Shown piece by piece: positions 126 through 14,653 of a stretch of 64,000 nt of DNA (the first letter of the stretch is position 1; every line of letters starts with the position of its first letter). Both the position numbers and the translations under genes were made by a program. The notes under the pieces are model-generated. The model was not told the DNA's origin, searched no databases, and saw only the letters and a list, made by a program, of their open reading frames with translations. Source of the DNA: a virus (Duplodnaviria > Caudoviricetes); the IMG/VR virus record IMGVR_UViG_3300020420_000671, one strand, 5' to 3'.

Positions 126-201
126 TTATTTGCCCTCTTTTTTGTTTAACTATACTTGCAGTATAACACCCCCTTGCGAGGGTGTCAACCTTTTATTTTA
201 A

Positions 202-549
202 TTAATCTGCTCTGCTACCCATGTAGGCCTTAAAGCCATATTTCCTAAGTACCTCGGCATAGGCCTGTGCTCCGACCTCTTTACAGTCCATGCTCTGTCC
301 CGCATGTTTTGCCGGATCCCACATAGTCATCGTCTTGCTCATATGGCTCTTTCTAAAGCCCACGGAAGCAAGTGCCTTAGCCTCTTTCGAATTAGTTCTG
401 CCCACGCTCACGTCTACCCAAGCAAACCCACAATACATCGGCTCGCCATATTCGTTGCCGCCTGTCTTGCTGTTCCAGTCTGTTAAGAATTGTCCCACAG
501 CATTCTTTGCCGCTTGGGTTGCTTCTGTATGGATGTCTAGTATTTGCAT
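202..549 (-). CDS. hypothetical phage protein
   Basis: 115-aa ORF with its own promoter (613-585) and AAGGGC RBS. Confidence 0.8.
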   Translation of the reverse strand: MQILDIHTEATQAAKNAVGQFLTDWNSKTGGNEYGEPMYCGFAWVDVSVGRTNSKEAKALASVGFRKSHMSKTMTMWDPAKHAGQSMDCKEVGAQAYAEVLRKYGFKAYMGSRAD

Positions 550-760
550 TTTTAGCCCTTCTGTTAATGTTTAACTATACTTGCATTATATGATCTAATA
601 TCCTATAAGTCAACCTCTTTTGGAAAAAAAATTTCTACTGGAATTACAGGCATTGGTAGTGTTTGTCTCCGACTCTTACTTGGGAATTCAGCCGCCCTAA
701 CCCTCTAACTATATGCAGTATATGATCTATTGATAGGTCTGTCAACCCCTAATGGAAGAC

Positions 761-838
761 TGGCCTCTCCTGAGGGACTCGAACCCCCGACCCACGGCTT
801 AGAAGGCCGTTGCTCTAATCCAACTGAGCTAAGGAGAG
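761..838 (-). tRNA. tRNA-Arg(UCU)
   Basis: Cloverleaf: acceptor CTCTCCT/AGGAGAG, anticodon stem ACGGC/GCCGT with loop CTTCTAA, T-loop TTCGAGT, encoded CCA. Confidence 0.95.
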
Positions 839-893
839 ATCTCCAGTCATGCTCTGGGGGCGACTTTGCTCTGCCGCCCCCGACATCGATCCC

Positions 894-1232
894 CTATGCC
901 GTTACCGGATCTTTAGTTTCTTCTGTTTGGGTGGTGTTTGATTCGACAGCGTCAGTCACTTCTTTGACGATGTCCTTAGAACAGTTCCTTACCACGAACT
1001 CACTGATCGCACTCTGTTGTTCTTCTGATTGGAACTTAGGGTGGTTGATCAGCATCTGGCAGATCTGTGCCTTGGTCATCTCTTCACCAAGTTCAATCAG
1101 TTCAAGTTCGGTGTGACCGTTCTTAGAAAGGATTTTGATCCTCTGAACGAAGTCCTTTGCGAACCTTACCTTGACTGTACCACTTGGTAGTCTAGATGTT
1201 CCTGCTACTGAGAAAGTTTTAATTGTTGCCAT
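894..1232 (-). CDS. hypothetical phage protein (MATIKTFSVAGTSRL...)
   Basis: Start re-set to ATG 1232 behind GGAGGGC RBS and promoter at 1310. Confidence 0.8.
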   Translation of the reverse strand: MATIKTFSVAGTSRLPSGTVKVRFAKDFVQRIKILSKNGHTELELIELGEEMTKAQICQMLINHPKFQSEEQQSAISEFVVRNCSKDIVKEVTDAVESNTTQTEETKDPVTA

Positions 1233-1281
1233 ATCGTTTAGCCCTCCTTCTGGCTGTGTGTTATTGTTTATCATATAATGA

Positions 1282-1476
1282 TTATACACTCTGAACTGGG
1301 TGGTTGTCAACCTCTTTTTTACCAAAAAGTTGAGCCATCCTAGCTGGAAGAACGATGCCCGAATTACATGAATCGCAACAACGGCCTTCTCTAACAGGCT
1401 CGGCGTTATGTCCGAGATCCCATCCTGTTACTGGGTCCGGGAGGATAGGCCCCCCACATATATCACATTTCTTCAT
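1282..1476 (-). CDS. small zinc-finger-like protein (CxxC...CCxxC)
   Basis: MKKCDICGG...RCCDSCN; ATG overlaps upstream TAA. Confidence 0.7.
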   Translation of the reverse strand: MKKCDICGGPILPDPVTGWDLGHNAEPVREGRCCDSCNSGIVLPARMAQLFGKKEVDNHPVQSV

Positions 1477-1673
1477 TATTTGCTCCCTGCTTGAATTAAC
1501 ATTACGGCGCCTAAGCCCATACTTACAATCGACCCTGCCACTAATAATAGCATAAGCCAAATCGGATTTGCCAGTTCCATACACTTTCCGTCGCAGTCAC
1601 CAGCACTACCTGCCGCAACTACTATGCCTAGGAATATTAAAACTGTTCCGAATATGTTTAAAAATGTTTTCAT
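1476..1673 (-). CDS. small two-TM membrane protein
   Basis: Two hydrophobic helices around a CDGKC loop; own promoter and GAGGGC RBS. Confidence 0.75.
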   Translation of the reverse strand: MKTFLNIFGTVLIFLGIVVAAGSAGDCDGKCMELANPIWLMLLLVAGSIVSMGLGAVMLIQAGSK

Positions 1674-1746
1674 CTTGCCCTCGCTTTCTTATTATGTTTA
1701 TAATATAGCACGGAATTGGATCCTTGTCAACCCCTAATTTGGAGTG

Positions 1747-1962
1747 CTATTCGTAGCACTCCCCAAAGTCCTCCCATTCCTGCTCCCACGTAGGCTGGCC
1801 ATCATCCTCATCCTCTAGGAACCGATCGCTCAGTTCGTTAGCGTCCAGCATCTCGGCGCAGTCGTCTTCCGACATCCACTTGGCGCACATGATCACCATG
1901 TCCTTGGCATCGACCATTCCGTCTTCTACCAACTCGATCATCTTATCTCTTGAAATACCCAT
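1747..1962 (-). CDS. acidic hypothetical protein
   Basis: 71-aa ORF, own promoter and GAGGGC RBS. Confidence 0.75.
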   Translation of the reverse strand: MGISRDKMIELVEDGMVDAKDMVIMCAKWMSEDDCAEMLDANELSDRFLEDEDDGQPTWEQEWEDFGECYE

Positions 1963-2043
1963 TTTGCCCTCTTTCTGTTTCCTTATTATGTTTATACTAT
2001 AGCACAGGTTTGGACCCGTGTCAACCCCTTTTTTTAAAAAACA

Positions 2044-2229
2044 TTAACACACATAATAATGTGTTAACGTAATATCCTCCATGCTTAAATTTAATTGCTT
2101 ACTTAAATTATACTTTGTCATAAATTGCTGTCCCATAGCAAAACGTTTAGTTTTACTTTGCACAACGCATAAGTCCTGCACTTCAGCTCCGTTTACATTG
2201 TAAGTAAAGTGCACTTGTAACTGTTTCAT
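2044..2229 (-). CDS. hypothetical protein, proline-free, UC/CC-free mRNA
   Basis: ATG 2229 behind GAGGGC; promoter TTGCGT-17-TACTAT. Confidence 0.75.
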   Translation of the reverse strand: MKQLQVHFTYNVNGAEVQDLCVVQSKTKRFAMGQQFMTKYNLSKQLNLSMEDITLTHYYVC

Positions 2230-2298
2230 TTTGTAGCCCTCGTTGTTGTATTGTATTTGCATAGTAGCACAAAAAATGCTACTACGCAACCATTTTTT

Positions 2299-2502
2299 TT
2301 ATAAATGTTTAATTTTTGTGTTAGTGCTTTCAAAAACGTTTACACATTTTGCACTTGTTAAATCATAAACTAAATGTGTAGTGTATAATTTATTTTGTAA
2401 CATATACGCATTGCAATCTTGTATGTTTTCAAAAAACTGTAAATGTGTTTTATCATTTACATCTGCATCATTGTGTAGTAAATATTTGTACTGCATTTGC
2501 AT
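2299..2502 (-). CDS. hypothetical protein, proline-free, UC/CC-free mRNA
   Basis: ATG 2502 behind GAGGGC; promoter TTGACT at 2564. Confidence 0.75.
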   Translation of the reverse strand: MQMQYKYLLHNDADVNDKTHLQFFENIQDCNAYMLQNKLYTTHLVYDLTSAKCVNVFESTNTKIKHL

Positions 2503-2599
2503 TTTGCCCTCATTTTTTATTTTTATTATGTTTATAATATAACACAAAAAATCCAAAAAGTCAAGCAAAAAATTAATTTGTTTTTTTGGAAATTAATGC

Positions 2600-2628
2600 T
2601 TTACAAAACGGAAAATGTGTGTTATAGT
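2600..2628 (+). promoter_or_regulatory. sigma70-type early promoter, divergent from the 2564 promoter
   Basis: TTTACA-17-TATAGT upstream of GGAGGG RBS and ORF 2670. Confidence 0.75.
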
Positions 2629-2669
2629 GCATACATAATAAAACTTTAACATACTACGGAGGGTGCAGT

Positions 2670-3017
2670 ATGCAAAACTTTAAAACTATTACTAAAAAAA
2701 CAACTACTAAAGTGGAAAGTGTGCACGTGGATGTGTTGTACGCAGTAATTGAAAATTGCTACAACAGTTTACAAGTAGTGGAAGCAGACGGCACTAGTGC
2801 TAGTTACTTCCTAAATAGTGCTAACATTTTTGCACAACTACAGGAAGTATATGCAGAAAACTGCCATAATAACTATGTTAGTTTAGCAAGTGTTATGGAA
2901 GTTTTTGCTAACAACATAACTTACTACGACGAAGAATACGGCTTGTATGAAAGTGTAGTTGAAAATACTGCACTTGCTAAAGTTAAGTTGCAGGATTATG
3001 CTTGTTTAAGTAACTAA
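2670..3017 (+). CDS. hypothetical protein, proline-free, nearly UC/CC-free mRNA
   Basis: 115-aa ORF with GGAGGG RBS; the only plus-strand gene found in the early region. Confidence 0.8.
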   Translation: MQNFKTITKKTTTKVESVHVDVLYAVIENCYNSLQVVEADGTSASYFLNSANIFAQLQEVYAENCHNNYVSLASVMEVFANNITYYDEEYGLYESVVENTALAKVKLQDYACLSN

Positions 3018-3033
3018 CAAAAACAAAAAACAA

Positions 3034-3063
3034 AAAGACAGCAAAAGAACGCTGTCTTTTTTT
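3034..3063 (+). terminator. intrinsic, probably bidirectional terminator
   Basis: AAAGACAGC/GCTGTCTTT hairpin with T-tract between convergent genes. Confidence 0.75.
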
Positions 3064-3067
3064 GTGG

Positions 3068-3313
3068 CTACTTGCTACGGTGACAGCCGGATCCTCTGTT
3101 GTTGGTATCCAGGGCGTCGTAAGCACAGTCGTACATGTTCGCCACGATGCCATCTTTGGACAGATGCCTAGTAGCGTTAATGATCTTGATAGTGTCTTTA
3201 CCTGACAGGCCACCTACTACACCGGGGCCTCCACATCCGCTTAACATAATACAGAAGCAGATAACAACAAGGATAAACATCATTCCTGGTGGTGGGGTAC
3301 GAGGAGCAAACAT
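3068..3313 (-). CDS. putative lipoprotein
   Basis: Hydrophobic stretch followed by LSGC lipobox; ATG abuts upstream stop. Confidence 0.55.
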   Translation of the reverse strand: MFAPRTPPPGMMFILVVICFCIMLSGCGGPGVVGGLSGKDTIKIINATRHLSKDGIVANMYDCAYDALDTNNRGSGCHRSK

Positions 3314-3520
3314 TTAAGAAGCTACCTCAATCTGGTACCCGTAACTCCAATGTCCGTTGTCCATGTCAAACGTACATCTGTCCTTGTCCGCTACGAATAT
3401 CTTGTCTACGCCGATGCCATACTTCTCACCGTTCTGGCATAGCTCAATACCGGTCACCTTGGCCTCACCCCATCGTGTGTCAACCCTAGTACCGATCTTA
3501 ATGAATTTTCTGTCTGCCAT
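3314..3520 (-). CDS. hypothetical protein
   Basis: 68-aa ORF with GAGGG RBS and promoter at 3581. Confidence 0.75.
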   Translation of the reverse strand: MADRKFIKIGTRVDTRWGEAKVTGIELCQNGEKYGIGVDKIFVADKDRCTFDMDNGHWSYGYQIEVAS

Positions 3521-3698
3521 ATTACCCTCTTTGTTTGTTAATTTATACTTATATTATAACACCCTAATCTGCTCTTGTCAACCCCTCTTTTGCCAATTGC
3601 GATCTCTGTGGACCTGTTTCCGGAGGCCTTACAACGGGGCCTCGCATGTTGTATGCTTTATTATAGCACACAACACACAAGTTGTCAACCGTTTTATA

Positions 3699-4142
3699 CT
3701 ACGCCGCTACAGCCTCCTCTACGCTTAACTCCTCTATGTCCACGCTTAAATAACTTTCGTCATCTCCGTCGTGTCCCTGCATTCCCTGTTCGCTACCGCT
3801 ACAAGTTAAAAGTCCCCCTGTTAGTTCCTCTAACTTGTCTCCTATCATTTTGTCTAATGCTCCCGTGTAAGCAAGTCCGTTAGCATCCGTTCCGCCCTTG
3901 TACTTTAATTGTACAGTTCCTTCTCCACACGCAACTTCCTCGTCGTCGTATATGTTCCCATACACAAAGTGCAAGTACAGTTCGTCATTTGTAATTTCGC
4001 AATCTCCCCAGTAGCCGCCTTCGTAACTACTAGCCCAACCTGTTCCCAAGTTTATTACTACGCTGTAAAAATTAGCATCCTGCTTCTCTATAGTAACAGC
4101 AGTCCCTAGCTTCTCTTGTAGTTTATTTAAAAGTGTAAACAT
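3699..4142 (-). CDS. acidic hypothetical protein, proline-free, UC/CC-free mRNA
   Basis: ATG 4142 behind GAGGGC; promoter at 4208. Confidence 0.8.
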   Translation of the reverse strand: MFTLLNKLQEKLGTAVTIEKQDANFYSVVINLGTGWASSYEGGYWGDCEITNDELYLHFVYGNIYDDEEVACGEGTVQLKYKGGTDANGLAYTGALDKMIGDKLEELTGGLLTCSGSEQGMQGHDGDDESYLSVDIEELSVEEAVAA

Positions 4143-4217
4143 ATTTGCCCTCATGTTTGTTGTTGTTTAGTATAGTTACACTATAGCACAAGTATGCTAT
4201 AGTGTCAAGTGTTTTTT

Positions 4218-4694
4218 TTAATAACTTTCAAAAATCCGTAAACTTAAACTTAACCAGTGTTCTACTTGTTCGTCTACGTCCTTGTTAAGTAAGTTGTCGT
4301 TCCACTTTTCGTAACAAGCACATTCAAACTGTTCCGTAATACTATCCCTGTATTCCGTGTCGTAACTTTTAAGTGCCATGCCTGCATCTTCCAGTGTAAA
4401 AGTCCACTCCGCATGTGTTTCGCCTCGTTGCCAATCACCGTCGTGTTCCTTGTGTTTGCCGTACAACATATCCAAGTGTCCTAGCACTTCTCTCGCATCA
4501 CACATCCTAACAAAGCCGTCGCCTGCACGTCTGCTTTCTGTGTTCATGTTTGTTAAGCCGTCTAGCACACCCGCCATAAAGTCTATAACAAAGTCCTTTT
4601 CTTGTTGTGTAAAGCGTTGCATGTCCTCCACTTTGCTTGTGTCTGTTACAAGTACGTCCCACATGCTGTTTATTTTGCTGTAATCTACTTTCAT
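4218..4694 (-). CDS. acidic hypothetical protein, proline-free, UC/CC-free mRNA
   Basis: ATG 4694 behind GAGGGC; promoter at 4754. Confidence 0.8.
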   Translation of the reverse strand: MKVDYSKINSMWDVLVTDTSKVEDMQRFTQQEKDFVIDFMAGVLDGLTNMNTESRRAGDGFVRMCDAREVLGHLDMLYGKHKEHDGDWQRGETHAEWTFTLEDAGMALKSYDTEYRDSITEQFECACYEKWNDNLLNKDVDEQVEHWLSLSLRIFESY

Positions 4695-4757
4695 ATTTGC
4701 CCTCGCTGTTTTTAAGTTATAATGCATACTAGCACCGTTTTACCAAAATGTCAAGTA

Positions 4758-4895
4758 TTATTTTACAAAATATGTAAAATAATCCTCCATGTGTTCCGCA
4801 ATGTCGTCTGCGTTCTGCAAGTCGCCGCTAGCCTCCATCTGCTCGTATGCTCTGTTTAAAAAGTAAAGTGTAATCTTGTTAAGTAATTTCTGCAA
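4758..4895 (-). CDS. 45-aa hypothetical protein (MQKLLNKITLYFLNRAYEQMEASGDLQNADDIAEHMEDYFTYFVK), not in ORF track
   Basis: TTG start behind GGAGGGC RBS and own promoter at 4955; fills the cassette exactly. Confidence 0.65.
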   Translation of the reverse strand: MQKLLNKITLYFLNRAYEQMEASGDLQNADDIAEHMEDYFTYFVK

Positions 4896-4958
4896 TGTGC
4901 CCTCCTATTGCTTAATTGTTATATGCATATTAACACCGTTTTACCAAAATGTCAACCG

Positions 4959-5144
4959 TTAATTTTCAAAATTGCTATTAAAAATATGTTCCAGTGTTTC
5001 CTGCTCGTCATCATCCAAGTATGTAAAGTCGTCACACACCTTCGTCTCACCCGTGTCCGTGTTAGTAATCTCCAGCCTACAGCTCACGTTGCCGTTGCCC
5101 CATGTTGTAGCCTTCTCGCTTGCCGCCAATTTATAAGTGTACAT
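4959..5144 (-). CDS. hypothetical protein, proline-free, UC/CC-free mRNA
   Basis: ATG 5144 behind GAGGGC; promoter at 5204. Confidence 0.75.
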   Translation of the reverse strand: MYTYKLAASEKATTWGNGNVSCRLEITNTDTGETKVCDDFTYLDDDEQETLEHIFNSNFEN

Positions 5145-5237
5145 ATTGCCCTCTATGTTTTTTAAGTTATAATGCATATTACTACACAACACGCAGTCTG
5201 TCAAGCAAAAAATTCCAAAATAATAATAAAAAACAGG

Positions 5238-5266
5238 TTGACAAATGTGGCAAGAGGTGGTATTAT
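5238..5266 (+). promoter_or_regulatory. sigma70-type promoter firing into the non-coding region
   Basis: TTGACA-17-TATTAT; no downstream ORF. Confidence 0.7.
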
Positions 5267-6040
5267 AATAGTATAACTTGCGTAAGAGGGCAACACTGAG
5301 ACAGGTGTAGAGGGCGAGAAAAACGTAAAAGGGCTACAGGCTGGCCGAATCCTGACTAGATTTCCGCCCAAAAATCTCCAACAAAAACAATGACTTAACT
5401 GGACGAACAGAAGAACACATTCCGCACCCTCCCCGCCAAAACCGTGTTAAAAAAGCCACACCATTTCGCTCCACTAATCCAAAACAATTCCGGACCATCA
5501 CTCCGTCAAATTTCCAACGATTTCCGTCCAAAAAGCACAACGAAATCAAACACATAAAGGAGCTAGTTGAATCAATACATAAGCTCCTAGTGACCCAACG
5601 CCTTAGTTATCTGCATGCACACATAGAGTGACCCAGCTGTTATACTGTAGTGAATCCCCACTTCGAATCTGGAAAGCTGTTAAAGAGGGGCGAGCCAACG
5701 AAGAACGCTCTACGGGAGGCCCCTCAGTAGGACCAGATTAACGGCCCCGAAGGGGCCTCGTGACCACCGCAGATCAGCCTTGAAAATGGTTCAAACCACG
5801 GTGGTGACAGGGGTCTGTAGTGGTGGGTGGTGTTGCGAAAATGCCACACTCTATACGAAAACCAAAAGATCTGTAGCCAAAAAAGAAAAGGTCGAGGCAG
5901 GTGACGAGAGGCATAGTTCAAATACTCTGACCCTTTTGAACACCGTAAGACCCTACCGTGAATATACCGTTCAAACCGTAGGGGCTCATCTATCTAGAGA
6001 CCTTACAGCGGGGCCTATGCTTTATAATGATCTCCTCTAC
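5267..6040. other. long non-coding region with short repeats (possible genome terminus, packaging or origin region)
   Basis: No credible ORF; TTCCG and GGGGCCT repeats, hairpins and strong local strand skew; function is inference only. Confidence 0.45.
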
Positions 6041-6041
6041 A

Positions 6042-6128
6042 TGGTACGAGCAGTGAGACTCGAACTCACACGACCTTTCAGTCTACGGATTTTAAGTCCG
6101 TTGCGTCTACCAATTCCGCCATGCTCGC
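6042..6128 (-). tRNA. tRNA-Leu(UAA)
   Basis: Cloverleaf with ACGGA/TCCGT anticodon stem, loop CTTAAAA, long variable arm, A73 and CCA. Confidence 0.95.
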
Positions 6129-6146
6129 CATGTAAACGAACGCCTC

Positions 6147-6374
6147 TTAACCATCAGAAACGTCCGACCAACTCCTTTGCAACGGGGCCTTTGCCTTTGC
6201 TATTCTATCCACTATTAACTGATAGACATTTACGTTAGGAGTGTCAAGAGGCCAACTCAGGTCAACCGTGTCACTACCGTTCGCTCCGTCCTCTTCGAGG
6301 CTGTAGGATCTACCGCTACCGCTCTCCGAGCTATTAAAATCTATCGTTCCGCTGTCGCGGCTATTGTTATTCAT
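6147..6374 (-). CDS. hypothetical Ser/Gly/Asp-rich protein
   Basis: 75-aa ORF coupled to upstream ORF by ATGA overlap. Confidence 0.5.
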   Translation of the reverse strand: MNNNSRDSGTIDFNSSESGSGRSYSLEEDGANGSDTVDLSWPLDTPNVNVYQLIVDRIAKAKAPLQRSWSDVSDG

Positions 6375-6466
6375 CCTGTTATCCCATACACAATCGCATT
6401 CAGTATCACAGTGACTCCTGCCGCTATCAGCATTATCAATATCAGTGTCTGCCCTTCCGTGGGCAT
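6371..6466 (-). CDS. 31-aa single-TM peptide (MPTEGQTLILIMLIAAGVTVILNAIVYGITG)
   Basis: Manually found; fills gap with ATGA overlap to next ORF. Confidence 0.5.
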   Translation of the reverse strand: MPTEGQTLILIMLIAAGVTVILNAIVYGITG

Positions 6467-6473
6467 CTTAGGG

Positions 6474-6806
6474 TCATTCTCCATTGTCATCCTCCGTGTT
6501 ATCATTTGATATTACTCTGAGAGTCTTTCTCAGCTGATCCTGTGTTAGGGTCTTTCTGTCCTGTGGTTTGAACTTGATCTTAACGATCTTGTTGCCGTCC
6601 TGTTCTTCCGTTTCGTCTATCTCGATCTCAACTTCTGATCTTTCAACTTCGAATCTTTGAGCCAGTTCGTCTATGTCTCGCTGGAGATCCTCATAGGTTT
6701 CGTCATCCATCTGTAGATCAGCATATCGCTGAGCCAGATTCAACACGGTCTCAAATAGGGTCTGTGTCTCCGGATCCAGGGGTCCATATGTGATTTTCTC
6801 TGCCAA
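6474..6806 (-). CDS. acidic hypothetical protein
   Basis: 110-aa ORF, TTG start behind AAGGAG. Confidence 0.7.
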   Translation of the reverse strand: MAEKITYGPLDPETQTLFETVLNLAQRYADLQMDDETYEDLQRDIDELAQRFEVERSEVEIEIDETEEQDGNKIVKIKFKPQDRKTLTQDQLRKTLRVISNDNTEDDNGE

Positions 6807-6825
6807 TCATGTGTCTCCTTTGTTG

Positions 6826-7053
6826 CTACCCTTTGGGGTGTTCTATCCATTGCTCTTCTGGCAGGAAGCCAACGAGCCTATCGTGTGGTAGGGTTGAAAT
6901 AAGTTCTTCTATCGCTGTCTCATCACCACCCTTGATGTCCTTGCGGATCTGTTTCAGCACGGCATCTAAGAGCTTCTGCTGGGGTTCTGATGGCATATTG
7001 TTGAACATCTCCTCCTCAGCGAACTCTGACCACGTTCCCTTTTCACTAGGCAT
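6826..7053 (-). CDS. hypothetical protein (MPSEKGTWSEF...)
   Basis: ATG 7053 overlaps end of upstream gene; the longer ORF-track version is an artefact. Confidence 0.65.
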   Translation of the reverse strand: MPSEKGTWSEFAEEEMFNNMPSEPQQKLLDAVLKQIRKDIKGGDETAIEELISTLPHDRLVGFLPEEQWIEHPKG

Positions 7054-7645
7054 TTTCAACCTCCTCAAACTGATCCTGTTCGTATTCTGCCATTGATTCT
7101 CCAATGCCAAACTGTTCATCCAACTGACCCAACAGGGTGTGCCTTTCAGCATCCAGTAGGTCCGAGCTTTTATAGTCTGAGGGTGCCAAGCAGTCATCTG
7201 CTCCATCTTCCCATTCGCCCATGAAATCACAGCCACCTTCGTAATACATACAACGGATTGACACGTCTGGATTCTTTTCAATGTAGTAATCCAAAGCAGT
7301 CAGTGGGGGTGCCCAAGCTGAATCAAACCAGCCATTTATCTCAGCTTCGTCTGATCCTGCCACGTGATGATTGATCTCCAAGTGATCCACGTCAACGTCC
7401 CATTTTGTACCCCAATTGTTCACGGCCCAGTCATACCAGTTGTCATAGCCATCAACTATGGGTTGTGGCCCTTTGTAGTTGGCTGAACCCTTCTCGGGTG
7501 TGGGTGAAGTGGTTTCTCTCAGTGATTGTGGCATGGGTCTAAGTATGTCCAGCATCTTGCCCTTGCCTTTCACTTCCTGATAAAGAGCTTCGATCTTAGC
7601 CTTCGGACCCTTTATCGTTATTGAATTGTTACACCAATTTGGCAT
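7046..7645 (-). CDS. DUF1281/YubB-like ferredoxin-fold protein
   Basis: MPNWCNN start, WYDW...NWGTKWD and FDSAWAPP motifs typical of the family. Confidence 0.75.
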   Translation of the reverse strand: MPNWCNNSITIKGPKAKIEALYQEVKGKGKMLDILRPMPQSLRETTSPTPEKGSANYKGPQPIVDGYDNWYDWAVNNWGTKWDVDVDHLEINHHVAGSDEAEINGWFDSAWAPPLTALDYYIEKNPDVSIRCMYYEGGCDFMGEWEDGADDCLAPSDYKSSDLLDAERHTLLGQLDEQFGIGESMAEYEQDQFEEVENA

Positions 7646-7717
7646 ATTGCCCTCGCTTTCTTTGTTGTTTATAATACTATTATAAGACCTATAGGGGTAA
7701 AAGTCAACCCCTAATGG

Positions 7718-8230
7718 CTAACCTATGAACTGACCTTTCTTCTTCATGTCTAAAACTCTTTTCAGCATATCGATATGATCCTGTACCGCAACCTCAAACA
7801 GTGGCTTGATAGTCTCAGGCTCATTTTCATCTACATAGAACCATTCGAACTTCTCTTCATCTGCCTTCTTGCTCACATCCTTGAGAACATATAGATATTC
7901 TTCACCGCATTTGAAAGCCTCGTCCAACAGGACCACCCCATTCAGGTGCTTGTGGTATCCCACATCCTTTTCGCCTCGGTCACGGCCATAATAGACATTC
8001 TGTATGTCATAGTCCTTAGCCTTGCGATCGTCGAAGTCAATCTTTGATCCTACGGTATAGGCCCACTTGGAAGCATCTCCCAATTCAATTGCTTCTTGAA
8101 CCTTGTCGTAGTTGGTCCAATGATCGATCAGGATATAACCTAGTCCTCCTGGATAACCGTCCCAATGTTGATATGATGAAATAAATGAACCGTCTTTCAG
8201 TTCCAATGCTATTCTTGCCCTTGTTGCCAT
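7718..8230 (-). CDS. conserved phage hypothetical protein
   Basis: MATRARIA...YQHWDGYP motif; own promoter. Confidence 0.8.
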   Translation of the reverse strand: MATRARIALELKDGSFISSYQHWDGYPGGLGYILIDHWTNYDKVQEAIELGDASKWAYTVGSKIDFDDRKAKDYDIQNVYYGRDRGEKDVGYHKHLNGVVLLDEAFKCGEEYLYVLKDVSKKADEEKFEWFYVDENEPETIKPLFEVAVQDHIDMLKRVLDMKKKGQFIG

Positions 8231-8274
8231 CTTTGTGCCTTTCCTTGTTGCCTTATTATGTTTATATTATATGA

Positions 8275-8592
8275 TCAATTGAGAACTTTGTCAACCTGTT
8301 TCGACTGACTAGTTTCACCAATGATCAATGCCAATTTTAATAGTATGCCCTCCACATTCATAGGAGATAGGTTGTGAATAACATCATCAACCCAGTCCAT
8401 TTCGTTCAGTGGGTCAGGGTGGATCCCAGGTAATTGAACAAAACGACCATCCTTGAAAATAGCCAATTCATAGTGATTACCTTTGCCTGTAAGATCAACA
8501 ACGGACACTTCATATGGTCCCATTTGAACTTTGGCTTGGATCCCACCTGCCTTCACTGGGTGGGGCAAAAATTGTAAATCTGTAAATCTCAT
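8275..8592 (-). CDS. hypothetical protein
   Basis: 105-aa ORF in operon. Confidence 0.7.
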   Translation of the reverse strand: MRFTDLQFLPHPVKAGGIQAKVQMGPYEVSVVDLTGKGNHYELAIFKDGRFVQLPGIHPDPLNEMDWVDDVIHNLSPMNVEGILLKLALIIGETSQSKQVDKVLN

Positions 8593-8594
8593 AT

Positions 8595-8954
8595 CTAGCT
8601 CCCTGTCACAAGTTCTAGTTCGCCATTGTCTAGCATGGTGAAATCTTCGACAAAATAGTGCCAGTCACCTTTGGCCTTCTTTGCCTGTTGAAAGCAGTCT
8701 TCCGCCGCCTTCCATAAAGCACCTAGGGTACCGTCTTCTGCTACGGCTTTGAAAGTCACCCAGGTTGTGTCGTCAAAGGACGGACCCATCTCATCGATGA
8801 TCTTGTAGGAAACCGTTCTAGGCTTGTCTGTGAAAATCTTGAAGTCCAAAGGCATACAGCCTTGTAGATCCATATCGAACACGGTGTCATAACCTAACTG
8901 ATCCTTTAGACCATCATAATGATTACGTTCTTTAATAAAATTATCTTCTAGCAT
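8595..8954 (-). CDS. hypothetical protein
   Basis: ATG 8954 behind GGAGGG; promoter at 9022. Confidence 0.75.
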   Translation of the reverse strand: MLEDNFIKERNHYDGLKDQLGYDTVFDMDLQGCMPLDFKIFTDKPRTVSYKIIDEMGPSFDDTTWVTFKAVAEDGTLGALWKAAEDCFQQAKKAKGDWHYFVEDFTMLDNGELELVTGS

Positions 8955-9029
8955 ATAACCCTCCAAAGTTTTGTTTGCCCTAATTACTCATTTATTATAT
9001 GATCATTTTGAAGCCTTGTCAACCCCTAA

Positions 9030-9638
9030 TTAACAAGAAACTGCATTTAATCTCTTATTAATTGACTCTTTTTCTTCATCAGGTAGAACGTCCCAATATT
9101 CCATCAGTATCTTGTACGCCACTTCATATTTGTTTTCGCTCTTATATCCTGACTCTGGATCTATGTTCCAATCTCTATTTCTAGTGGTAATGGTCATCTG
9201 ATCTGGGTTTTCATAATCCTCTGTATCATACTCAATAACATCCTGCCATTCATTCATAATTTGAAATAGATATTCATTGGCATGATCGTAGTCATCACCT
9301 ATCCAGTCATATTCATTGACAGCAATATAGTCTGCCACTTCACTGTCACTCATGTTCATAAGTTCGTTCAGTTTCTTTTCGTCATTGATCTTATACATTC
9401 CGTGATCGTGAAACTCTATACAATTATAGAACCTATTGTCCTCTTGCCCAAGTTCATATTGCTTTGGCTTTTCAGAATAATTATCCCCTGGCGACATCTC
9501 TATAGTTGCTAGGATATATCTCATTCTCTGAGTGTCTTCTTGATACCAATCCTGATTGTTATAGACATATTCGCCAATGTTCTTTACATCACTGACGAAT
9601 GCTTTTTTGATTTGTTCTCTTTGTTTTATAGTAGTCAT
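9030..9638 (-). CDS. acidic hypothetical protein
   Basis: 202-aa ORF with GAGGGC RBS and long leader. Confidence 0.75.
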   Translation of the reverse strand: MTTIKQREQIKKAFVSDVKNIGEYVYNNQDWYQEDTQRMRYILATIEMSPGDNYSEKPKQYELGQEDNRFYNCIEFHDHGMYKINDEKKLNELMNMSDSEVADYIAVNEYDWIGDDYDHANEYLFQIMNEWQDVIEYDTEDYENPDQMTITTRNRDWNIDPESGYKSENKYEVAYKILMEYWDVLPDEEKESINKRLNAVSC

Positions 9639-9797
9639 TTAAGCCCTCTTTCTTTTTGTTATAAACCTGGCGTTTAGATCTCGGCATGCATCTGTTTTAA
9701 TCTAATACCTTAGCTCACCCTTATCAACCGACGGTAGCCTCTGTGAGTACCAAGTTTCTTATTATGTCTTTATAATAACATCATCTGACATAGTTGT

Positions 9798-10727
9798 CTA
9801 CCCCTGTTTCTGCCAAATGTAAATTTTATCCTGCTTTTTCTTGCCCTTTTGTTGACCTAGTTGTTGAAGCAGATTCTCTTCGCTGTCACACTCGGGTAGG
9901 CCATGCTTAAGAGCATCTTCATACATCTTAGGAGATATGTTAAAGCAGACGTTCCCACCTATCTTAATATGTTTCAAACATTTTTCAAACAGAGGCAAAA
10001 AGAAATCCTTGTAAAATAGTTCATCACTCTGCCATGGCTTCATGTGTTCATACAATTCTAAGTTGATGTAGGGCGGACTTGTAAGAACCATGTCATAGGG
10101 TATCTTTGAAAAGTCCACATCAAGACAGCTCTTGTAGATCATCTTTAATTTACTTGTCTGGGTCTCGAATAGTTCGTTATCAAGCTCTTGTTCTTTGTTT
10201 AGAAAGTCTATCATACCGTCATAGGCAGTTTTAAGTTCTTTGTTCGTGTCTATGCCTGTGTAATCTATATCAAGAGCCCAAGCACCTAGCATCCTGCCAC
10301 CCCAACCTGCTGTCGGATCTAATACATGGCTGGCTCCATATTTCTTGTAGAGATATTTTGCCGTTGTGCTTTTGAACATCACAATGGATCCAAGATTGAT
10401 ACGGAAACATTCATAGACATTACCAGCGGCAGTTCTGCCACCTCTGTTTCTCTTTCGAGTGTTTTCGATCAGCTTCTTTCGTTCTTTTGGATCATTCCAG
10501 ATGTCATAGATAGTCTTGCCCTTTTCTCTACGGCAGTTCAATAAATTCTTAAATTGAAAGTGATATAGAAATGGATTGCCATAGAAGTTATTCTTATTCT
10601 GTACGGCTTCAAACTTTCTTAAATTTTCTAAATCTTTTTGAAGTTCTCTAGTGGAGATGATTTTATGATTCTCAATGTCATTTATAGTCACCGAACTCAA
10701 ATGTCTATTTACTGGCTTCAACTTCAT
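9798..10727 (-). CDS. DNA amino-methyltransferase (N4-C/N6-A type)
   Basis: SAM-binding motif VLDPTAGWGGR and catalytic motif TSPPY. Confidence 0.85.
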   Translation of the reverse strand: MKLKPVNRHLSSVTINDIENHKIISTRELQKDLENLRKFEAVQNKNNFYGNPFLYHFQFKNLLNCRREKGKTIYDIWNDPKERKKLIENTRKRNRGGRTAAGNVYECFRINLGSIVMFKSTTAKYLYKKYGASHVLDPTAGWGGRMLGAWALDIDYTGIDTNKELKTAYDGMIDFLNKEQELDNELFETQTSKLKMIYKSCLDVDFSKIPYDMVLTSPPYINLELYEHMKPWQSDELFYKDFFLPLFEKCLKHIKIGGNVCFNISPKMYEDALKHGLPECDSEENLLQQLGQQKGKKKQDKIYIWQKQG

Positions 10728-10758
10728 ACTAATATATTATAATCAAAACCCCTTTTTG

Positions 10759-10965
10759 TCAACCAGTATTGGCCAACCCGTAATGAGTGTACCACATCTC
10801 CTTGTGATCGACATAAAAGTCAGTATCACGATCGTAATACTTTCCTTCTTGCGGATCATAATACAGAACCTTGCCTGATTCAAACATATATGGACCTTCC
10901 AATCCTTGATCACTCAAGTCCGTGTATCTTTCACGGTCAATCTGTCCTAGCACCTTATACCCCAT
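10759..10965 (-). CDS. hypothetical protein
   Basis: 68-aa ORF in coupled operon. Confidence 0.7.
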   Translation of the reverse strand: MGYKVLGQIDRERYTDLSDQGLEGPYMFESGKVLYYDPQEGKYYDRDTDFYVDHKEMWYTHYGLANTG

Positions 10966-11176
10966 TAAGAAATCCTCCTAAAAAATCTGGTTTACGGTTT
11001 CTACCCTTGCGGATCTTGATAAAGTTTCTTTCAGTGACCACACTCGGCATACCATGCCTGCCACCCATGTTCACCACCCAACCAATAGGGCCCTTCATCA
11101 CTGCCTTGCCCTTCAACTCTTTTGAGTGTGGGGTAGAAAAATAAACTGTATCACCTACCATAATATCATTAAACAT
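10955..11176 (-). CDS. hypothetical protein
   Basis: 73-aa ORF in coupled operon. Confidence 0.7.
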   Translation of the reverse strand: MFNDIMVGDTVYFSTPHSKELKGKAVMKGPIGWVVNMGGRHGMPSVVTERNFIKIRKGRNRKPDFLGGFLNGV

Positions 11177-11376
11177 TATTTGATCTCCTTTATTTCATAA
11201 AAGATTGCGTCTTTAAGGTCGTCCGTGTCGAAACTATATTCTTCACCTGAGTCCTCATCGTGAACATAAAGTTTCTGCTCTTCAGGATCGAACCCATCTA
11301 CCCTTGACCAATCGTCTCCGGGCAGTTTGATGAAAGAAGCTCTCTTACATTTTTCAAACATTACCTTGTCCATCAT
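11176..11376 (-). CDS. hypothetical protein
   Basis: 66-aa ORF in coupled operon. Confidence 0.7.
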   Translation of the reverse strand: MMDKVMFEKCKRASFIKLPGDDWSRVDGFDPEEQKLYVHDEDSGEEYSFDTDDLKDAIFYEIKEIK

Positions 11377-11600
11377 AATGATTCCTCCTCTCGCATATTC
11401 GCAAAGAGCATCAACTCTATTGAAAGTTCCTTTGCCTGCTCCCTTGTGAGTGATATGTAATCGAAGTGATTGTCTGCGGTTGTCCTAGGTGTTTTACCTG
11501 TTCTAGGTAGTGTTATTTGAACGCAGGAGCCTTTGTCTTTCCCACCAAAGAATCTAGTGAGCCAAAATGCTTCTGAATTAGTTTTAAGATCTGTTGCCAT
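11373..11600 (-). CDS. hypothetical protein
   Basis: 75-aa ORF, GAGGGC RBS, promoter at 11660. Confidence 0.75.
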   Translation of the reverse strand: MATDLKTNSEAFWLTRFFGGKDKGSCVQITLPRTGKTPRTTADNHFDYISLTREQAKELSIELMLFANMREEESL

Positions 11601-11656
11601 GTCGCCCTCTCTGTTGCCTTATTATGTTTATATTATATGATCAGTTGATCTTCTTG

Positions 11657-12025
11657 TCAACCCCTAATCATGCCCTGTTCAATTGCGGCCGCTCGAACTA
11701 TGGGTGTGAATGCTTCACTTACTAAAAATTCAACCCTGTCCCAGTTGCCTGGAAAATATTGATCTCTGCCGTAGTATTCTGGCAATGGAAGATCATCTCT
11801 TTTGAGGCCTAGTACCTTAAGACTCTTACCTCTATTGATAAGACCATTGTTAAAAATGTCATAGGTGACATTCTGTGCCTTTCGGAACTTTTCAAGACAT
11901 CTGTTCTTGTTGGCATTCTTTACCATGCCCATTGCTGGTAATTTGTCTTGGAGTGCGTCTACCAAATGTTTGACATCGTTTCTGACGCCCCATTCACTTG
12001 TGAATAATTCTGCTTGTTTGTCCAT
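11657..12025 (-). CDS. hypothetical protein
   Basis: 122-aa ORF, GAGGG RBS, promoter at 12085. Confidence 0.75.
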   Translation of the reverse strand: MDKQAELFTSEWGVRNDVKHLVDALQDKLPAMGMVKNANKNRCLEKFRKAQNVTYDIFNNGLINRGKSLKVLGLKRDDLPLPEYYGRDQYFPGNWDRVEFLVSEAFTPIVRAAAIEQGMIRG

Positions 12026-12105
12026 AATACCCTCTTCTTGTTTAAGTTATAATTGCATTATATGATCAATAAACTCTCTTGTCAACCCCTAATGAAAAAT
12101 AAAGT

Positions 12106-12199
12106 TGGTGGTCCCGGGGAGATTCGAACTCCCATCGCTCTCTAATCTGGAGACTTTGCCGAGTATAAGCCGGGTGTTTTACCATTAAACTACAGGACC
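12106..12199 (-). tRNA. tRNA-Ile(UAU) with atypical long variable arm
   Basis: Acceptor GGTCCTG/CGGGACC, loop CTTATAC, 24-nt variable region, T-stem GGGAG/CTCCC, A73 and CCA; 94 nt. Confidence 0.8.
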
Positions 12200-12207
12200 A
12201 CGGAACT

Positions 12208-12441
12208 TTAATTTAGGACAGGATCGTTAGGGCGTTCTTCTTGATCCGGATGCCAATGAGTGACATCACCGGTTAGAAAGCCATAATCATTATAAAAGAT
12301 AGACATTCCTCTCCACATTCTTCCTTCTTCATCTTCGTATAGTCCTCCATAGAAACCTCTATGGGTTCCTACGATATCAAAATGATACCAACAGGGTTCT
12401 CCTACCTCAGGTAGTCTTTCGTCAACATGAATCCATTCCAT
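12208..12441 (-). CDS. DUF551-like protein
   Basis: MEWIHVDERLPE start and VTHW end. Confidence 0.7.
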   Translation of the reverse strand: MEWIHVDERLPEVGEPCWYHFDIVGTHRGFYGGLYEDEEGRMWRGMSIFYNDYGFLTGDVTHWHPDQEERPNDPVLN

Positions 12442-12483
12442 AATAAACTCCTTTCAAATAGATTATCTTGTGTTTGATGTTTA

Positions 12484-12909
12484 TTATGATATTCGAAATT
12501 CTTCTTTGACGTATCTCTTTAGTTCGTGATCACCTACATCATCGGGCAGTTCTTTCTTGAAGAACAGCCGATAAGAATCGGAGCCGTATTTTCCAATGCC
12601 ATATAGTTTGGTGGCATCGTCTCCGTCCCAAGACATAAAGTCTTCGGTCATGCGTCGAAGTGTTCTTTCGCGTCGATTGTAGAATCCACATTCTCTAATC
12701 ACTTCTATTACATCCTCCGTCTTGCTATTTAAGAACTTCCGGGGCGTAGGCCATTTGTTTAGAAAAGCCGGTAAAGTTCTTTTCACTTGTTTTCTTCCTG
12801 TTTGGTTTAGGAAGATGACCCCCACCATATGTTGCCAGGGGCCACTTATCTGTTGTTGAACCATTCTATCCTCTTTAAGAGGAATAGACAATTTCTTTCG
12901 CTTTGGCAT
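12484..12909 (-). CDS. HhH-GPD DNA glycosylase, MBD4-like (G:T/G:U mismatch)
   Basis: PWQHMVGVIFLNQTGRKQV, KWPTP and LYGIGKYGSDSY motifs. Confidence 0.8.
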   Translation of the reverse strand: MPKRKKLSIPLKEDRMVQQQISGPWQHMVGVIFLNQTGRKQVKRTLPAFLNKWPTPRKFLNSKTEDVIEVIRECGFYNRRERTLRRMTEDFMSWDGDDATKLYGIGKYGSDSYRLFFKKELPDDVGDHELKRYVKEEFRIS

Positions 12910-13384
12910 ATAAGGTTTTATCTCCTTTGGTCAAAACTTCTAACAAGGCTTTCATCTCTTCGATGTAAACCTTTGCGAAGCTCGGATCGTTTGCCTTGAT
13001 GTCCTGTGAATTAGATATGACATCTGCCAATTTGATAGTTTGAACTTCGGCATTTTGTTTCGCCAAATGATCTTTGTCAATGGCCTTCCTTGCTTTTCTG
13101 TTGCCATCTTCTGGCTTAGAAACATCAGTCAAACCTTCTACCAAGTCGGCTACCTTTTGTGAAGTCTTATCAGCGATATCCTCTAAGGTAAAATCAGTAT
13201 CCTCCACCACGTCATGTAATAAAGCGGCGGCGATCATTTCATCTGTATGATCAACTTCCTGAACGATAGTGGCTACCTCAATAGGATGAACAATGTAAGG
13301 CAATTTAGAATATTTTCTAAACTGACCTTCATGTGCCTTGCCAGCCAACATCTTCGCTTCATTTATTAATGGTGTGTCTTTCAT
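12875..13384 (-). CDS. stand-alone RelA/SpoT-type HD hydrolase (Mesh1/SAH-like)
   Basis: AHEGQFRK...PYIVHP...AALLHDVVEDT...IKLAD motifs. Confidence 0.85.
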   Translation of the reverse strand: MKDTPLINEAKMLAGKAHEGQFRKYSKLPYIVHPIEVATIVQEVDHTDEMIAAALLHDVVEDTDFTLEDIADKTSQKVADLVEGLTDVSKPEDGNRKARKAIDKDHLAKQNAEVQTIKLADVISNSQDIKANDPSFAKVYIEEMKALLEVLTKGDKTLYAKAKEIVYSS

Positions 13385-13690
13385 TTACTCACTCGCTAAA
13401 GGATCTTTCCATTCAATCTCGTCCACGTCCCATAGATCCTCAAATGGAACAACGAATTCTCTTTTGGACTTTTCGTCCTGAAGTTTTACCAACTTCTTTT
13501 CTGTATCTCTTTGAAGCAGAATACCAAGTCCTTCATAGGTGCCTGTCTTCGCAATAGGTAAGTCGGATAAACTATATTGGCCACCTAAACGACCGAATTC
13601 GTCGATAGGCATATTTTCTAATTTGAATTTGGCCGCATAGCTCTTGCCCGGCTCAATAGTTTCGATTGTCAACATTGTTTTCTCCTTCAT
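13385..13690 (-). CDS. hypothetical protein
   Basis: 101-aa ORF behind promoter at 13728. Confidence 0.7.
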   Translation of the reverse strand: MKEKTMLTIETIEPGKSYAAKFKLENMPIDEFGRLGGQYSLSDLPIAKTGTYEGLGILLQRDTEKKLVKLQDEKSKREFVVPFEDLWDVDEIEWKDPLASE

Positions 13691-13736
13691 TGTCCTTATA
13701 TTATAAGGTCAATTATTTTAGATGTCAACTATTATT

Positions 13737-14602: not shown

Positions 14603-14653
14603 TGTTCGCCCTTTCTGTTTGCCTAATTATGTTTATATTATACGATCTAAAAT

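What the first reader, a model, noticed from the sequence alone, without database searches (positions are those of the whole stretch)
3640..5236. 1.6-kb block whose template strand has zero GA and zero GG dinucleotides (mRNA has no UC or CC)
Seen: reading line by line from 3640 to 5236, every G on the plus strand (roughly 200 or more by eye) is followed by C or T. GA and GG are common in the flanking DNA and in the rest of the window. The rule covers four minus-strand genes, their codon junctions, RBSs, promoters and spacers, so it acts at nucleotide level and is not codon bias. The opposite strand has abundant GA/GG, so it is not ordinary restriction-site avoidance. Established: DpdA-type 7-deazaguanine insertion in coliphage CAjan occurs at GA and GGC motifs; UV damage and some cytidine deaminases act at TC/CC. 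Inference: (a) virion DNA carries modified G at GA/GG that impedes host RNA polymerase, so these sigma70 genes keep a clean template; (b) the mRNAs evade a UC/CC-specific ribonuclease or modifier, from the host or from the phage for host shut-off; or (c) the exposed non-template strand is under selection against TC/CC damage. Any of these would be a sequence-encoded privileged-gene system that I do not recognise as described.
Basis: partly seen in the sequence, partly recalled or inferred. Interest (0 to 1): 0.95.

Follow-up and report, generated by a model that had tools for sequence, protein, structure and literature searches.

The report
Phage early genes banning TC/CC
Seven small first-expressed genes of a widespread marine giant phage are written, proteins included, so that their message strand never contains TC or CC. 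Selection keeps this in relatives, so something in the infected cell reads exactly these steps on one strand, but what it is remains unproven.

Summary
On the + strand, 3639-5236 holds 240 G and no GA or GG (P about 1e-76).

- **It follows gene direction.** A second block (2013-2588) obeys the same rule. The + strand gene 2670-3017 obeys the mirror rule.
- **It is nucleotide-level.** It covers UTRs, internal promoters, spacers and codon junctions, and it removes proline from all seven proteins.
- **Selection keeps it.** Relatives at 75-99% nucleotide identity, and homologous genes down to about 47% protein identity, keep the ban. 94 of 101 homologues have no proline.

The motif matches two known readers: phage DpdA-type guanine modification (GA/GG on the template strand) and the Rho termination factor (YC in the RNA).

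I rank the phage's own guanine modification first (about 0.35), Rho evasion second (about 0.28), and a YC-specific RNase or RNA modifier third (about 0.15). Reasons for this order:
- no site is tolerated, even in 3' UTRs;
- one conserved gene family bans all four dinucleotides;
- the jumbo phage PA5oct, reported to carry modified G at GA and/or GG, has short zones free of all four;
- T4 and T5, which infect an E. coli host that has Rho, show nothing.

Against the first-ranked reading, CAjan and VH7D, which encode DpdA, also show nothing.

This scan had already found the same phenomenon on other giant-phage DNA.

The parts
3639..5236 (-). Main block. The sense (minus) strand has no YC and the template (+) strand has no GR. 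It holds four genes with their promoters, UTRs and spacers.
4959..5144 (-). Privileged gene, 61 aa, acidic, no proline
4758..4895 (-). Privileged gene, 45 aa, TTG start behind GGAGGGCA, no proline
4218..4691 (-). Privileged gene, 157 aa, very acidic all-helical protein with no known fold. About 100 marine homologues, 94 of 101 without proline.
3699..4154 (-). Privileged gene, 151 aa, acidic, no proline, no family
5176..5204 (-). First promoter of the main block (TTGACA-17-TAATAT). Its template strand is free of GR, but its sense strand has GA in the -35 box.
4927..4955 (-). Internal promoter, TTGACA-17-TAATAT
4726..4754 (-). Internal promoter, TTGACA-17-TAGTAT
4180..4208 (-). Internal promoter, TTGACA-17-TATAGT
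3660..3688 (-). Promoter-like site (TTGACA-17-TATAAT) behind the last gene. The ban ends about 20 nt further on, inside the hairpin GAGGCC...GGCCTC (3617-3641).
2013..2588 (-). Second block with the same rule: genes 2044-2229 (61 aa) and 2299-2505 (68 aa), with promoter 2536-2564
2561..3055 (+). Mirror block. The + strand lacks TC/CC except at 2809-2811 and 2864. It holds promoter 2600-2628, gene 2670-3017 (115 aa) and an intrinsic terminator whose last stem pair carries the first TC.
5217..5345 (+). Divergent promoter (5238-5266) and a leader of about 75 nt that is free of YC. It is almost invariant in relatives and has a hairpin with compensatory changes and three GAGGGC-like boxes.
5345..5545 (+). 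Untranslated tract behind that leader. It is C-rich, G-poor and dense in YC, so it looks like a rut site on the RNA, or like a GR-dense template.

Best explanation
What is shown (confidence about 0.97): seven small genes form a privileged class of immediate-early transcription units, each with its own near-consensus sigma70 promoter. They are kept by purifying selection in a form where the transcribed (template) strand contains no 5'-GA or 5'-GG. Equivalently, the message contains no UC or CC. The ban holds from the promoter to the terminator stem.

What is inferred (the mechanism I rank first):
- The ban keeps the template strand free of the target motif of the phage's own guanine hypermodification, a DpdA-type 7-deazaguanine derivative inserted at GA/GG.
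- Virion DNA would then be modified everywhere except on the template strand of these units.
- A naive host RNA polymerase, arriving before any phage protein exists, would read them without meeting a bulky base. It would also escape any lesion that host enzymes make at such bases.
- Adducts and lesions on the transcribed strand stall RNA polymerase, while those on the other strand are passed. That would explain the strict strand rule. Each remaining site costs transcripts, which would explain why none is tolerated.
- The products are small acidic proteins of unknown fold and would act first, in take-over or counter-defence.
For: The ban is real, follows gene direction and includes non-coding parts. 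It is selected:
- Relatives at 75-99% identity show 5 forbidden dinucleotides among more than 1000 informative bases, although about 19% of neutral substitutions would create one.
- Homologous genes on distant contigs are YC-free, with 61-213 C each.
- 94 of 101 homologues lack proline.

Points that favour a DNA-level, one-hit reader:
1. No site is tolerated. The ban costs proline and holds in 3' UTRs up to the last terminator base pair, where Rho would not matter.
2. A conserved basic 79-aa gene family inside the blocks of L002 and L012 bans GA, GG, TC and CC together, so the duplex there has no GR step on either strand (36 G and 56 C).
3. Virion DNA of the jumbo phage PA5oct is reported to carry modified G at GA and/or GG (PMC12191111). 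PA5oct has 100-310 bp promoter and intergenic zones of 30-47% GC free of all four dinucleotides.
4. DpdA enzymes with GA or GA+GGC motifs are established (PMC10484667, PMC7544227).
5. T4 and T5, whose early genes are read by the RNA polymerase of an E. coli host that has Rho, have no such run.
6. A PTPS/QueD-like gene lies about 16 kb past the window end in a relative that shares identical copies of the proteins looked up. First-stage notes e1-5401423 and e1-5401419 describe a TGT/DpdA-like, QueD, FolE and QueE cluster in this genome. I did not check them.
Against: - The DpdA cluster and the motif of this phage are not verified here. My walk along the genome stopped about 27 kb past the window end.
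- CAjan, with nearly every GA/GGC site modified, and the DpdA2 phage VH7D have no GA- or GR-free run beyond chance. So 7-deazaguanine as such does not hinder host polymerase. A bulkier derivative has to be assumed.
- Most early genes of this phage have the same promoters and RBS but normal GR on their template. They would have to be read anyway, or later.
- The privileged promoters carry GA in the -35 box on the sense strand. A modified promoter must therefore still work.
- Why one gene family also needs a clean sense strand is not explained in detail.
- The C-rich, G-poor tract at 5345-5545 looks more like a Rho loading site than like anything this model requires.
Confidence: 0.35

Rival explanations
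1. Rho evasion. The six primary binding clefts of termination factor Rho each bind a 5'-YC dinucleotide of nascent RNA. A transcript without any UC or CC, and with fewer C than G, offers no loading site. These early units then cannot be terminated prematurely, even when ribosomes lag behind the polymerase.
For: - The banned set (UC plus CC) is exactly the specificity of the Rho binding site (PMC12360218, PMC6144790, PMC13323073).
- The sense strand has 15% C, 26% G and 60% purine.
- Avoidance of Rho through coding-strand composition is documented for cellular genes.
- The host is probably an alphaproteobacterium, since the phage tmRNA is of the alpha type. That group has Rho as a rule (my own knowledge).
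- Next to the block, an early promoter drives a YC-free conserved leader followed by a 200-nt C-rich, G-poor, YC-dense untranslated tract. Its composition, not its sequence, is conserved, as expected of a rut site.
Against: - Rho binding is cooperative. A few scattered YC should be harmless, yet none is tolerated in 1.6 kb, proline is given up, and 3' UTRs obey the ban.
- The model does not explain the gene family that also bans GA/GG, or the PA5oct zones free of all four dinucleotides, promoter DNA included.
- T4 and T5 early genes face Rho in E. coli and show no trace of the ban.
- Neighbouring early genes with the same promoter and RBS carry 7.4 YC per 100 nt. No reason is seen why only seven genes need protection.
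Confidence: 0.28
2. Escape from an enzyme that cuts or modifies single-stranded RNA at pyrimidine-C steps. It could be a host defence nuclease, or a phage take-over RNase delivered or made at once. Only YC-free messages survive while it is active. One of the small acidic products could be its inhibitor.
For: - One-hit logic fits the zero tolerance and the ban in 5' and 3' UTRs.
- The only YC near the 3' ends sit in terminator stems, which are double-stranded.
- The principle is known: ACA-less messages and MazF, UA/UU depletion and RNase L, CmdT acting on GA in RNA (my own knowledge, and note e1-5341439).
- The products are small acidic proteins without relatives of known function.
Against: - I know of no RNase or RNA modifier with YC specificity.
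- A second enzyme with the reverse-complement specificity would be needed for the gene family that also bans GA/GG.
- The model does not explain the clean promoter DNA in PA5oct.
- No nuclease of this kind was seen in the window. An SNase-like gene near 50.3 kb, seen, has no such specificity.
Confidence: 0.15
3. Attack on the exposed non-template DNA strand at TC/CC, by an APOBEC- or DddA-like deaminase or by a dC-specific single-strand endonuclease such as T4 endonuclease IV. The pattern would be either a mutational footprint or selection against damage.
For: - The banned context equals the usual context of cytosine deaminases (my own knowledge).
- The ban follows the non-template strand.
Against: - The ORFs are intact, tightly packed and conserved. 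Substitutions in relatives avoid creating YC about four times more often than neutral change would. This is selection, not erosion.
- Other strongly promoted early genes are not affected.
- The model does not explain the four-dinucleotide ban.
Confidence: 0.04

Closest known systems
DpdA-type 7-deazaguanine DNA modification of phages (CAjan: GA and GGC; iggy: GA; PA5oct: modified G inferred at GA and/or GG)
   Same: The target dinucleotides equal those banned from the template strand. The window's genome is said, in unchecked notes, to carry a DpdA-like cluster. PA5oct has short zones free of the motif on both strands.
   Different: No motif-free genes have been described for these phages. CAjan and VH7D have none. 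Here the avoidance is strand-specific and covers whole genes.
Rho loading sites, and avoidance of Rho by purine-rich coding strands (Nat Microbiol 2026, PMC13323073)
   Same: The dinucleotides (UC, CC) are the same and the strand (the RNA) is the same. The coding strand has more G than C.
   Different: The known cases are mild statistical biases over whole genomes. Here the ban is absolute, limited to a few genes, and costs an amino acid. Some relatives ban GA/GG as well.
Motif-depleted messages that escape sequence-specific RNA attack (ACA-less mRNAs and MazF; UA/UU and RNase L; CpG and ZAP; GA and CmdT)
   Same: The logic is the same: a privileged transcript is written without the target word.
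   Different: No YC-specific enzyme is known. The word here has only two letters, so the proteins themselves had to change.
T4 hydroxymethylcytosine with Alc (transcription that depends on the modification state of the template)
   Same: A T4-like phage couples base modification to which DNA the host polymerase can read.
   Different: T4 modifies every C and uses a protein factor. Here a sequence code would decide which units stay unmodified on one strand.
Restriction-site avoidance in early-entering phage DNA
   Same: Short words are avoided in the DNA that acts first.
   Different: Restriction avoidance is symmetric on both strands and concerns words of 4-8 bp. Here the opposite strand is full of the banned words.

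Membership tests
Rho-proof (rut-less) transcripts | Nascent RNA lacks 5'-YC dinucleotides and has no excess of C over G | tested here: met
   0 YC among 240 C over 1.6 kb of sense strand. C 15%, G 26%.
Rho-proof (rut-less) transcripts | Only the RNA strand needs the bias, and scattered single YC are tolerated because Rho binds cooperatively | tested here: not met
   No site is tolerated, 3' UTRs included. A conserved gene family bans GA/GG as well.
Rho-proof (rut-less) transcripts | The host has Rho, and expression of recoded genes depends on Rho | not testable with these tools
   The host is unknown. An alpha-type tmRNA points to an alphaproteobacterium.
Avoidance of the phage's own DpdA modification motif | The genome encodes DpdA and a 7-deazaguanine pathway | tested here: inconclusive
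   Only unchecked notes e1-5401423 and e1-5401419 say so. A PTPS/QueD-like gene was seen about 16 kb past the window end in a relative that shares identical copies of the proteins looked up. The walk stopped before the cluster. Pfam TGT misses even the known DpdA2 of VH7D.
Avoidance of the phage's own DpdA modification motif | Virion G is modified at GA and GG | not testable with these tools
   This needs LC-MS/MS or nanopore signal data. Only the inference for PA5oct is in the literature.
Avoidance of the phage's own DpdA modification motif | Phages with a proven or inferred GA/GG modification show motif-free DNA | tested here: inconclusive
   CAjan: none. VH7D: none. PA5oct: short zones free on both strands, but no gene-scale block.
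Restriction-site avoidance | The word is avoided on both strands of the duplex | tested here: not met
   The + strand has 132 TC and 113 CC where it has 0 GA and 0 GG.
Deaminase hypermutation footprint | Mutational erosion of YC with decaying genes | tested here: not met
   Intact conserved ORFs. Relatives avoid creating the words: 20 observed against 67 expected in the main block.
Codon-usage bias | The bias is confined to codons | tested here: not met
   47 G in non-coding parts with no GR. No T|C at codon junctions.

The most novel reading that the evidence does not exclude
Giant phages with a bulky guanine modification directed at GA/GG use a sequence code to decide, strand by strand, which DNA stays unmodified. 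A handful of immediate-early units have a clean template, and a few genes and promoters are clean on both strands. The modification state of the incoming genome would then itself set the order of gene expression and shield the first genes from modification-directed host attack. This would be a cis-encoded clean-template code that rewrites protein composition.
Probability: 0.3. Interest if true: 0.9.

Novelty: new variant of a known kind. Interest (0 to 1): 0.82.

Why it matters
Avoiding a short word to escape a reader is a known principle. An absolute, strand-specific ban on two dinucleotides is not: my literature searches found no description of one that spans whole transcription units, is kept over deep divergence, and strips an amino acid from a set of proteins.

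- a purely computational marker for the very first genes of a large, uncultured and globally distributed group of marine giant phages (12 studies hold this DNA);
- a pointer to seven or more protein families likely to act in take-over or counter-defence;
- a sharp, testable question: does a modified template, Rho, or an unknown nuclease decide which phage genes are read first?

Tried and rejected
- **DNA and protein searches for relatives.** blastn and megablast of the block and of 20 kb of the window against cultured phages found nothing. tblastn of the 157-aa protein found nothing. So no cultured carrier of such a block is known. Pattern scans of IMG/VR with the 151-aa and 157-aa proteins and with a 46-mer found nothing.
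- **Function of the privileged proteins.** Pfam gave only sub-threshold hits for all seven. The ESM Atlas gave no usable hit. A confident AlphaFold model (pLDDT 91) had no match in PDB or AlphaFold DB.
- **Does the ban reach untranscribed promoter DNA?** The block-initial promoters have 0 YC among about 17 C between -55 and -1, against 41% in ordinary early promoters. The numbers are small and the promoters share ancestry, so this is inconclusive.
- **RNA libraries.** Metatranscriptome contigs cover privileged and ordinary parts in patches and cannot rank expression. No support in either direction.
- **Verifying the DpdA cluster.** No whole genome is held for this window. ENA records cannot be searched by handle. 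Walking with exact proteins reached about 27 kb past the window end and stopped at a 2628-aa gene cut by the locus end. Pfam TGT finds no DpdA in PA5oct or VH7D, so that family search is not sensitive enough.
- **More examples in IMG/VR.** Five related contigs of 48-75 kb have no block, but by synteny they do not cover the early region. This says nothing either way.
- **Explanations rejected.** Chance, codon bias, restriction avoidance and deaminase erosion are rejected for the reasons given in the membership tests.
- **Not used.** No complex prediction was run, because no binding claim is made.
Full report
**1. The observation**

A direct count confirms the finding.
- Between the GR dinucleotides at 3638 and 5236, the + strand holds 240 G: 81 are followed by C, 158 by T, and none by A or G.
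- In the window as a whole, 52% of G are followed by a purine. The longest GR-free gaps elsewhere are about 99 bp. The probability is about 1e-76.
- The same strand has 132 TC and 113 CC, so the rule is strand-specific.

Two further blocks belong to it.
- 2013-2588 is also GR-free on the + strand and holds two minus-strand genes.
- 2561-2809 and 2864-3055 are free of TC/CC on the + strand, where the gene 2670-3017 runs on the + strand. There are three exceptions, at 2809-2811 and 2864.

Stated properly, the rule is that the sense strand of seven small genes has no pyrimidine-C step.

**2. Anatomy**

The seven genes are 3699-4154, 4218-4691, 4758-4895, 4959-5144, 2044-2229, 2299-2505 and 2670-3017.
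- Each has its own near-consensus sigma70 promoter (mostly TTGACA-17-TAnnnT) and a GAGGGCA-type ribosome-binding site.
- The ban covers 5' UTRs, internal promoters, spacers and 3' UTRs. The 344 non-coding bases of the main block hold 48 G, and none is GR apart from the boundary base.
- At the two clear intrinsic terminators (window 3024-3062 and L003), the first YC is the last base pair of the stem, directly before the T run.
- Inside genes, all 35 serines use AGY. NTC and NCC codons are absent apart from one TTC. No codon junction reads T|C.
- None of the 665 residues is proline, against 3.1% in neighbouring early genes.
- The products are mostly acidic and have no Pfam family.

Ordinary early genes lie between and beside the blocks, for example 3314-3520 and 1747-1962. 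They have the same kind of promoter and RBS but 7.4 YC per 100 nt. Their promoters often carry a TTAGGGG box before the -35 hexamer. The privileged promoters lack it.

**3. What the window is**

The window is part of a very large phage.
- It encodes ribonucleotide reductase, a CCA-adding enzyme, PRPP synthetase, tetrapyrrole enzymes, heme oxygenase and a bilin reductase, ribosomal protein S21, several tRNAs and a permuted tmRNA.
- The tmRNA matches the alphaproteobacterial model at 91.5 bits. The host is therefore probably an alphaproteobacterium. This is an inference.
- No cultured phage is similar at DNA level.
- The DNA is found in seawater metagenomes of 12 studies.

**4. Conservation**

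- The 157-aa protein has about 100 homologues in marine metagenomes, down to about 47% identity. 94 of 101 have no proline.
- On the contigs that encode them, the homologous genes are again YC-free on the sense strand.
  - L001 has runs with 199 and 93 C.
  - L002 has four runs with 65-213 C.
  - L003-L005 carry a single gene, with its promoter and terminator, between ordinary genes and a tRNA gene.
- Closer relatives (75-99% nucleotide identity, L006-L013) differ from the window at 355 positions in the main block. Their aligned sequences contain only 5 forbidden dinucleotides among more than 1000 informative bases.
- About 19% of neutral substitutions would create a forbidden dinucleotide.

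This is purifying selection, not chance, and not a mutational footprint.

**5. Two known readers match the word**

The banned set read on the RNA (UC, CC) is exactly what the primary binding clefts of termination factor Rho bind.

The same set read on the template strand (GA, GG) is the target of phage DpdA guanine transglycosylases:
- GA in iggy;
- GA and GGC in CAjan;
- modified G at GA and/or GG, inferred for the jumbo phage PA5oct.

Unchecked first-stage notes say this genome has a TGT/DpdA-like, QueD, FolE and QueE cluster about 73 kb past the window end. I could not reach it. I did see a PTPS/QueD-like gene about 16 kb past the window end in a relative that shares identical copies of the proteins looked up.

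**6. Tests between the readers**

a. Whole-genome scans.

| Phage | Relevant property | Result |
|---|---|---|
| T4, T5 | host polymerase, E. coli host with Rho | no run beyond chance |
| CAjan | nearly every GA/GGC site modified | no run beyond chance |
| VH7D | encodes DpdA2 | no run beyond chance |
| PA5oct | modified G inferred at GA and/or GG | no gene-scale block, but short zones free of GA, GG, TC and CC |

The PA5oct zones are 100-310 bp long, 30-47% GC, and lie in promoter and intergenic DNA. One example is 267252-267563, with TTGCAA-17-TATAAT promoters before tRNA genes. Neither Rho exposure nor DpdA as such produces the pattern. It belongs to a lineage of giant phages.

b. A basic 79-aa gene family sits inside the blocks of L002, and of L012 with one exception. 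It bans all four dinucleotides from just behind its RBS to the next RBS (36 G and 56 C). Its protein has no Asp, Gly, Pro or Trp, and no Glu in L002 (one in L012). Two RNA readers with reverse-complement specificities would be an odd coincidence. A reader of the duplex step explains it simply.

c. Zero tolerance, the loss of proline, and the ban in 3' UTRs fit a one-hit process: a stalled polymerase or a cut RNA. They fit cooperative Rho loading less well.

d. In favour of Rho, a divergent early promoter (5238-5266) drives a YC-free leader of about 75 nt that is almost invariant among relatives. A 200-nt C-rich, G-poor, YC-dense untranslated tract follows, and its composition is conserved while its sequence drifts. 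This looks like a deliberate Rho loading site. On the other model it would be a tract of dense template modification.

e. The privileged promoters keep GA in the -35 box on the sense strand. If GA is modified, promoters work when half-modified. The constraint is then on reading the template, not on promoter recognition.

f. Whether the ban reaches untranscribed promoter DNA could not be settled.

**7. Ranking**

| Rank | Reading | Probability |
|---|---|---|
| 1 | Clean template for the naive host polymerase on a genome modified at GA/GG | about 0.35 |
| 2 | Rho evasion | about 0.28 |
| 3 | A YC-specific RNase or RNA modifier | about 0.15 |
| 4 | Attack on the exposed non-template strand | about 0.04 |
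| - | Something not yet thought of | remainder |

Three of its premises are untested:
- that this phage modifies GA/GG;
- that the modification hinders polymerase or draws host attack;
- that ordinary early genes can wait.

**8. Function of the genes**

The function is unknown. The 157-aa protein folds with high confidence (pLDDT 91) into a helical domain with a small hairpin. It has no match in PDB or AlphaFold DB. Acidic small early proteins are typical of take-over and counter-defence functions. This is inference only.

**9. Novelty**

Six literature searches found no description of dinucleotide-free phage genes. This scan has met the same phenomenon on other giant-phage DNA, and earlier agents leaned either to Rho or to guanine modification. 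Those notes gave me leads: PA5oct, the 2026 purine-bias paper and the four-dinucleotide variant. I re-tested these leads here. The notes are not independent evidence.

Noticed in passing
window 5238-5345 (+): A promoter plus a leader of about 75 nt is almost 100% conserved in eight metagenome contigs whose flanks are only about 80% alike or are different cassettes. A 4-bp stem changes ACAC/GUGU to UAGC/GCUA around an invariant loop UGAGACAG. It is flanked by GAGGGC, GAGGGC and AAGGGC boxes without start codons. This is a candidate small RNA, perhaps a decoy for whatever binds the early RBS.
   Followed up: partly
window 5345-5545 (+): A 200-nt untranslated tract with about 35% C and 10% G and very dense YC. 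It is the top C-minus-G window on the + strand. The composition is conserved in relatives while the sequence drifts, so it looks like a rut site.
   Followed up: partly
window, early promoters 160-16300 (-): Ordinary early promoters often carry TTAGGGG or a similar G run directly before the -35 box (7 of 21 listed). None of the eight privileged promoters does. This suggests two promoter classes with different regulation.
   Followed up: partly
L002 11639-11878 (+); L012 4256-4511 (-): A conserved basic 79-aa protein family written without GA, GG, TC or CC. It has no Asp, Gly, Pro or Trp, and Glu is absent in L002 and present once in L012.
   Followed up: partly
window 47182-47708 (+): A permuted tmRNA of the alphaproteobacterial type (Rfam RF01849, 91.5 bits). 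It is a clue to the host.
   Followed up: partly
window 4957-5207: RNA-library contigs of relatives join 4957 to 5207, and 4943 to 5213, skipping gene 4959-5144. Early cassettes are gained and lost between the repeated promoter sequences.
   Followed up: no
window 47700-49500 and 58000-61400: An unusual set of metabolic genes for a phage: porphobilinogen deaminase, uroporphyrinogen decarboxylase, heme oxygenase, ferredoxin-dependent bilin reductase, GMP reductase, ClpS, HSP20 and ribosomal protein S21.
   Followed up: no
PA5oct (MK797984) 27590-27697, 239310-239498, 264905-265149, 267252-267563, 277054-277232: Short promoter and intergenic zones of a cultured jumbo phage are free of GA, GG, TC and CC on the + strand, and so on both strands, at 30-47% GC. 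This is a possible laboratory model for the phenomenon.
   Followed up: partly
L168 18394-18843 (+): A PTPS/QueD-like gene about 16 kb past the window end, in a relative that shares identical copies of the proteins looked up. Further on lie a phosphomannomutase, a UvdE-like nuclease and a 2628-aa protein.
   Followed up: no
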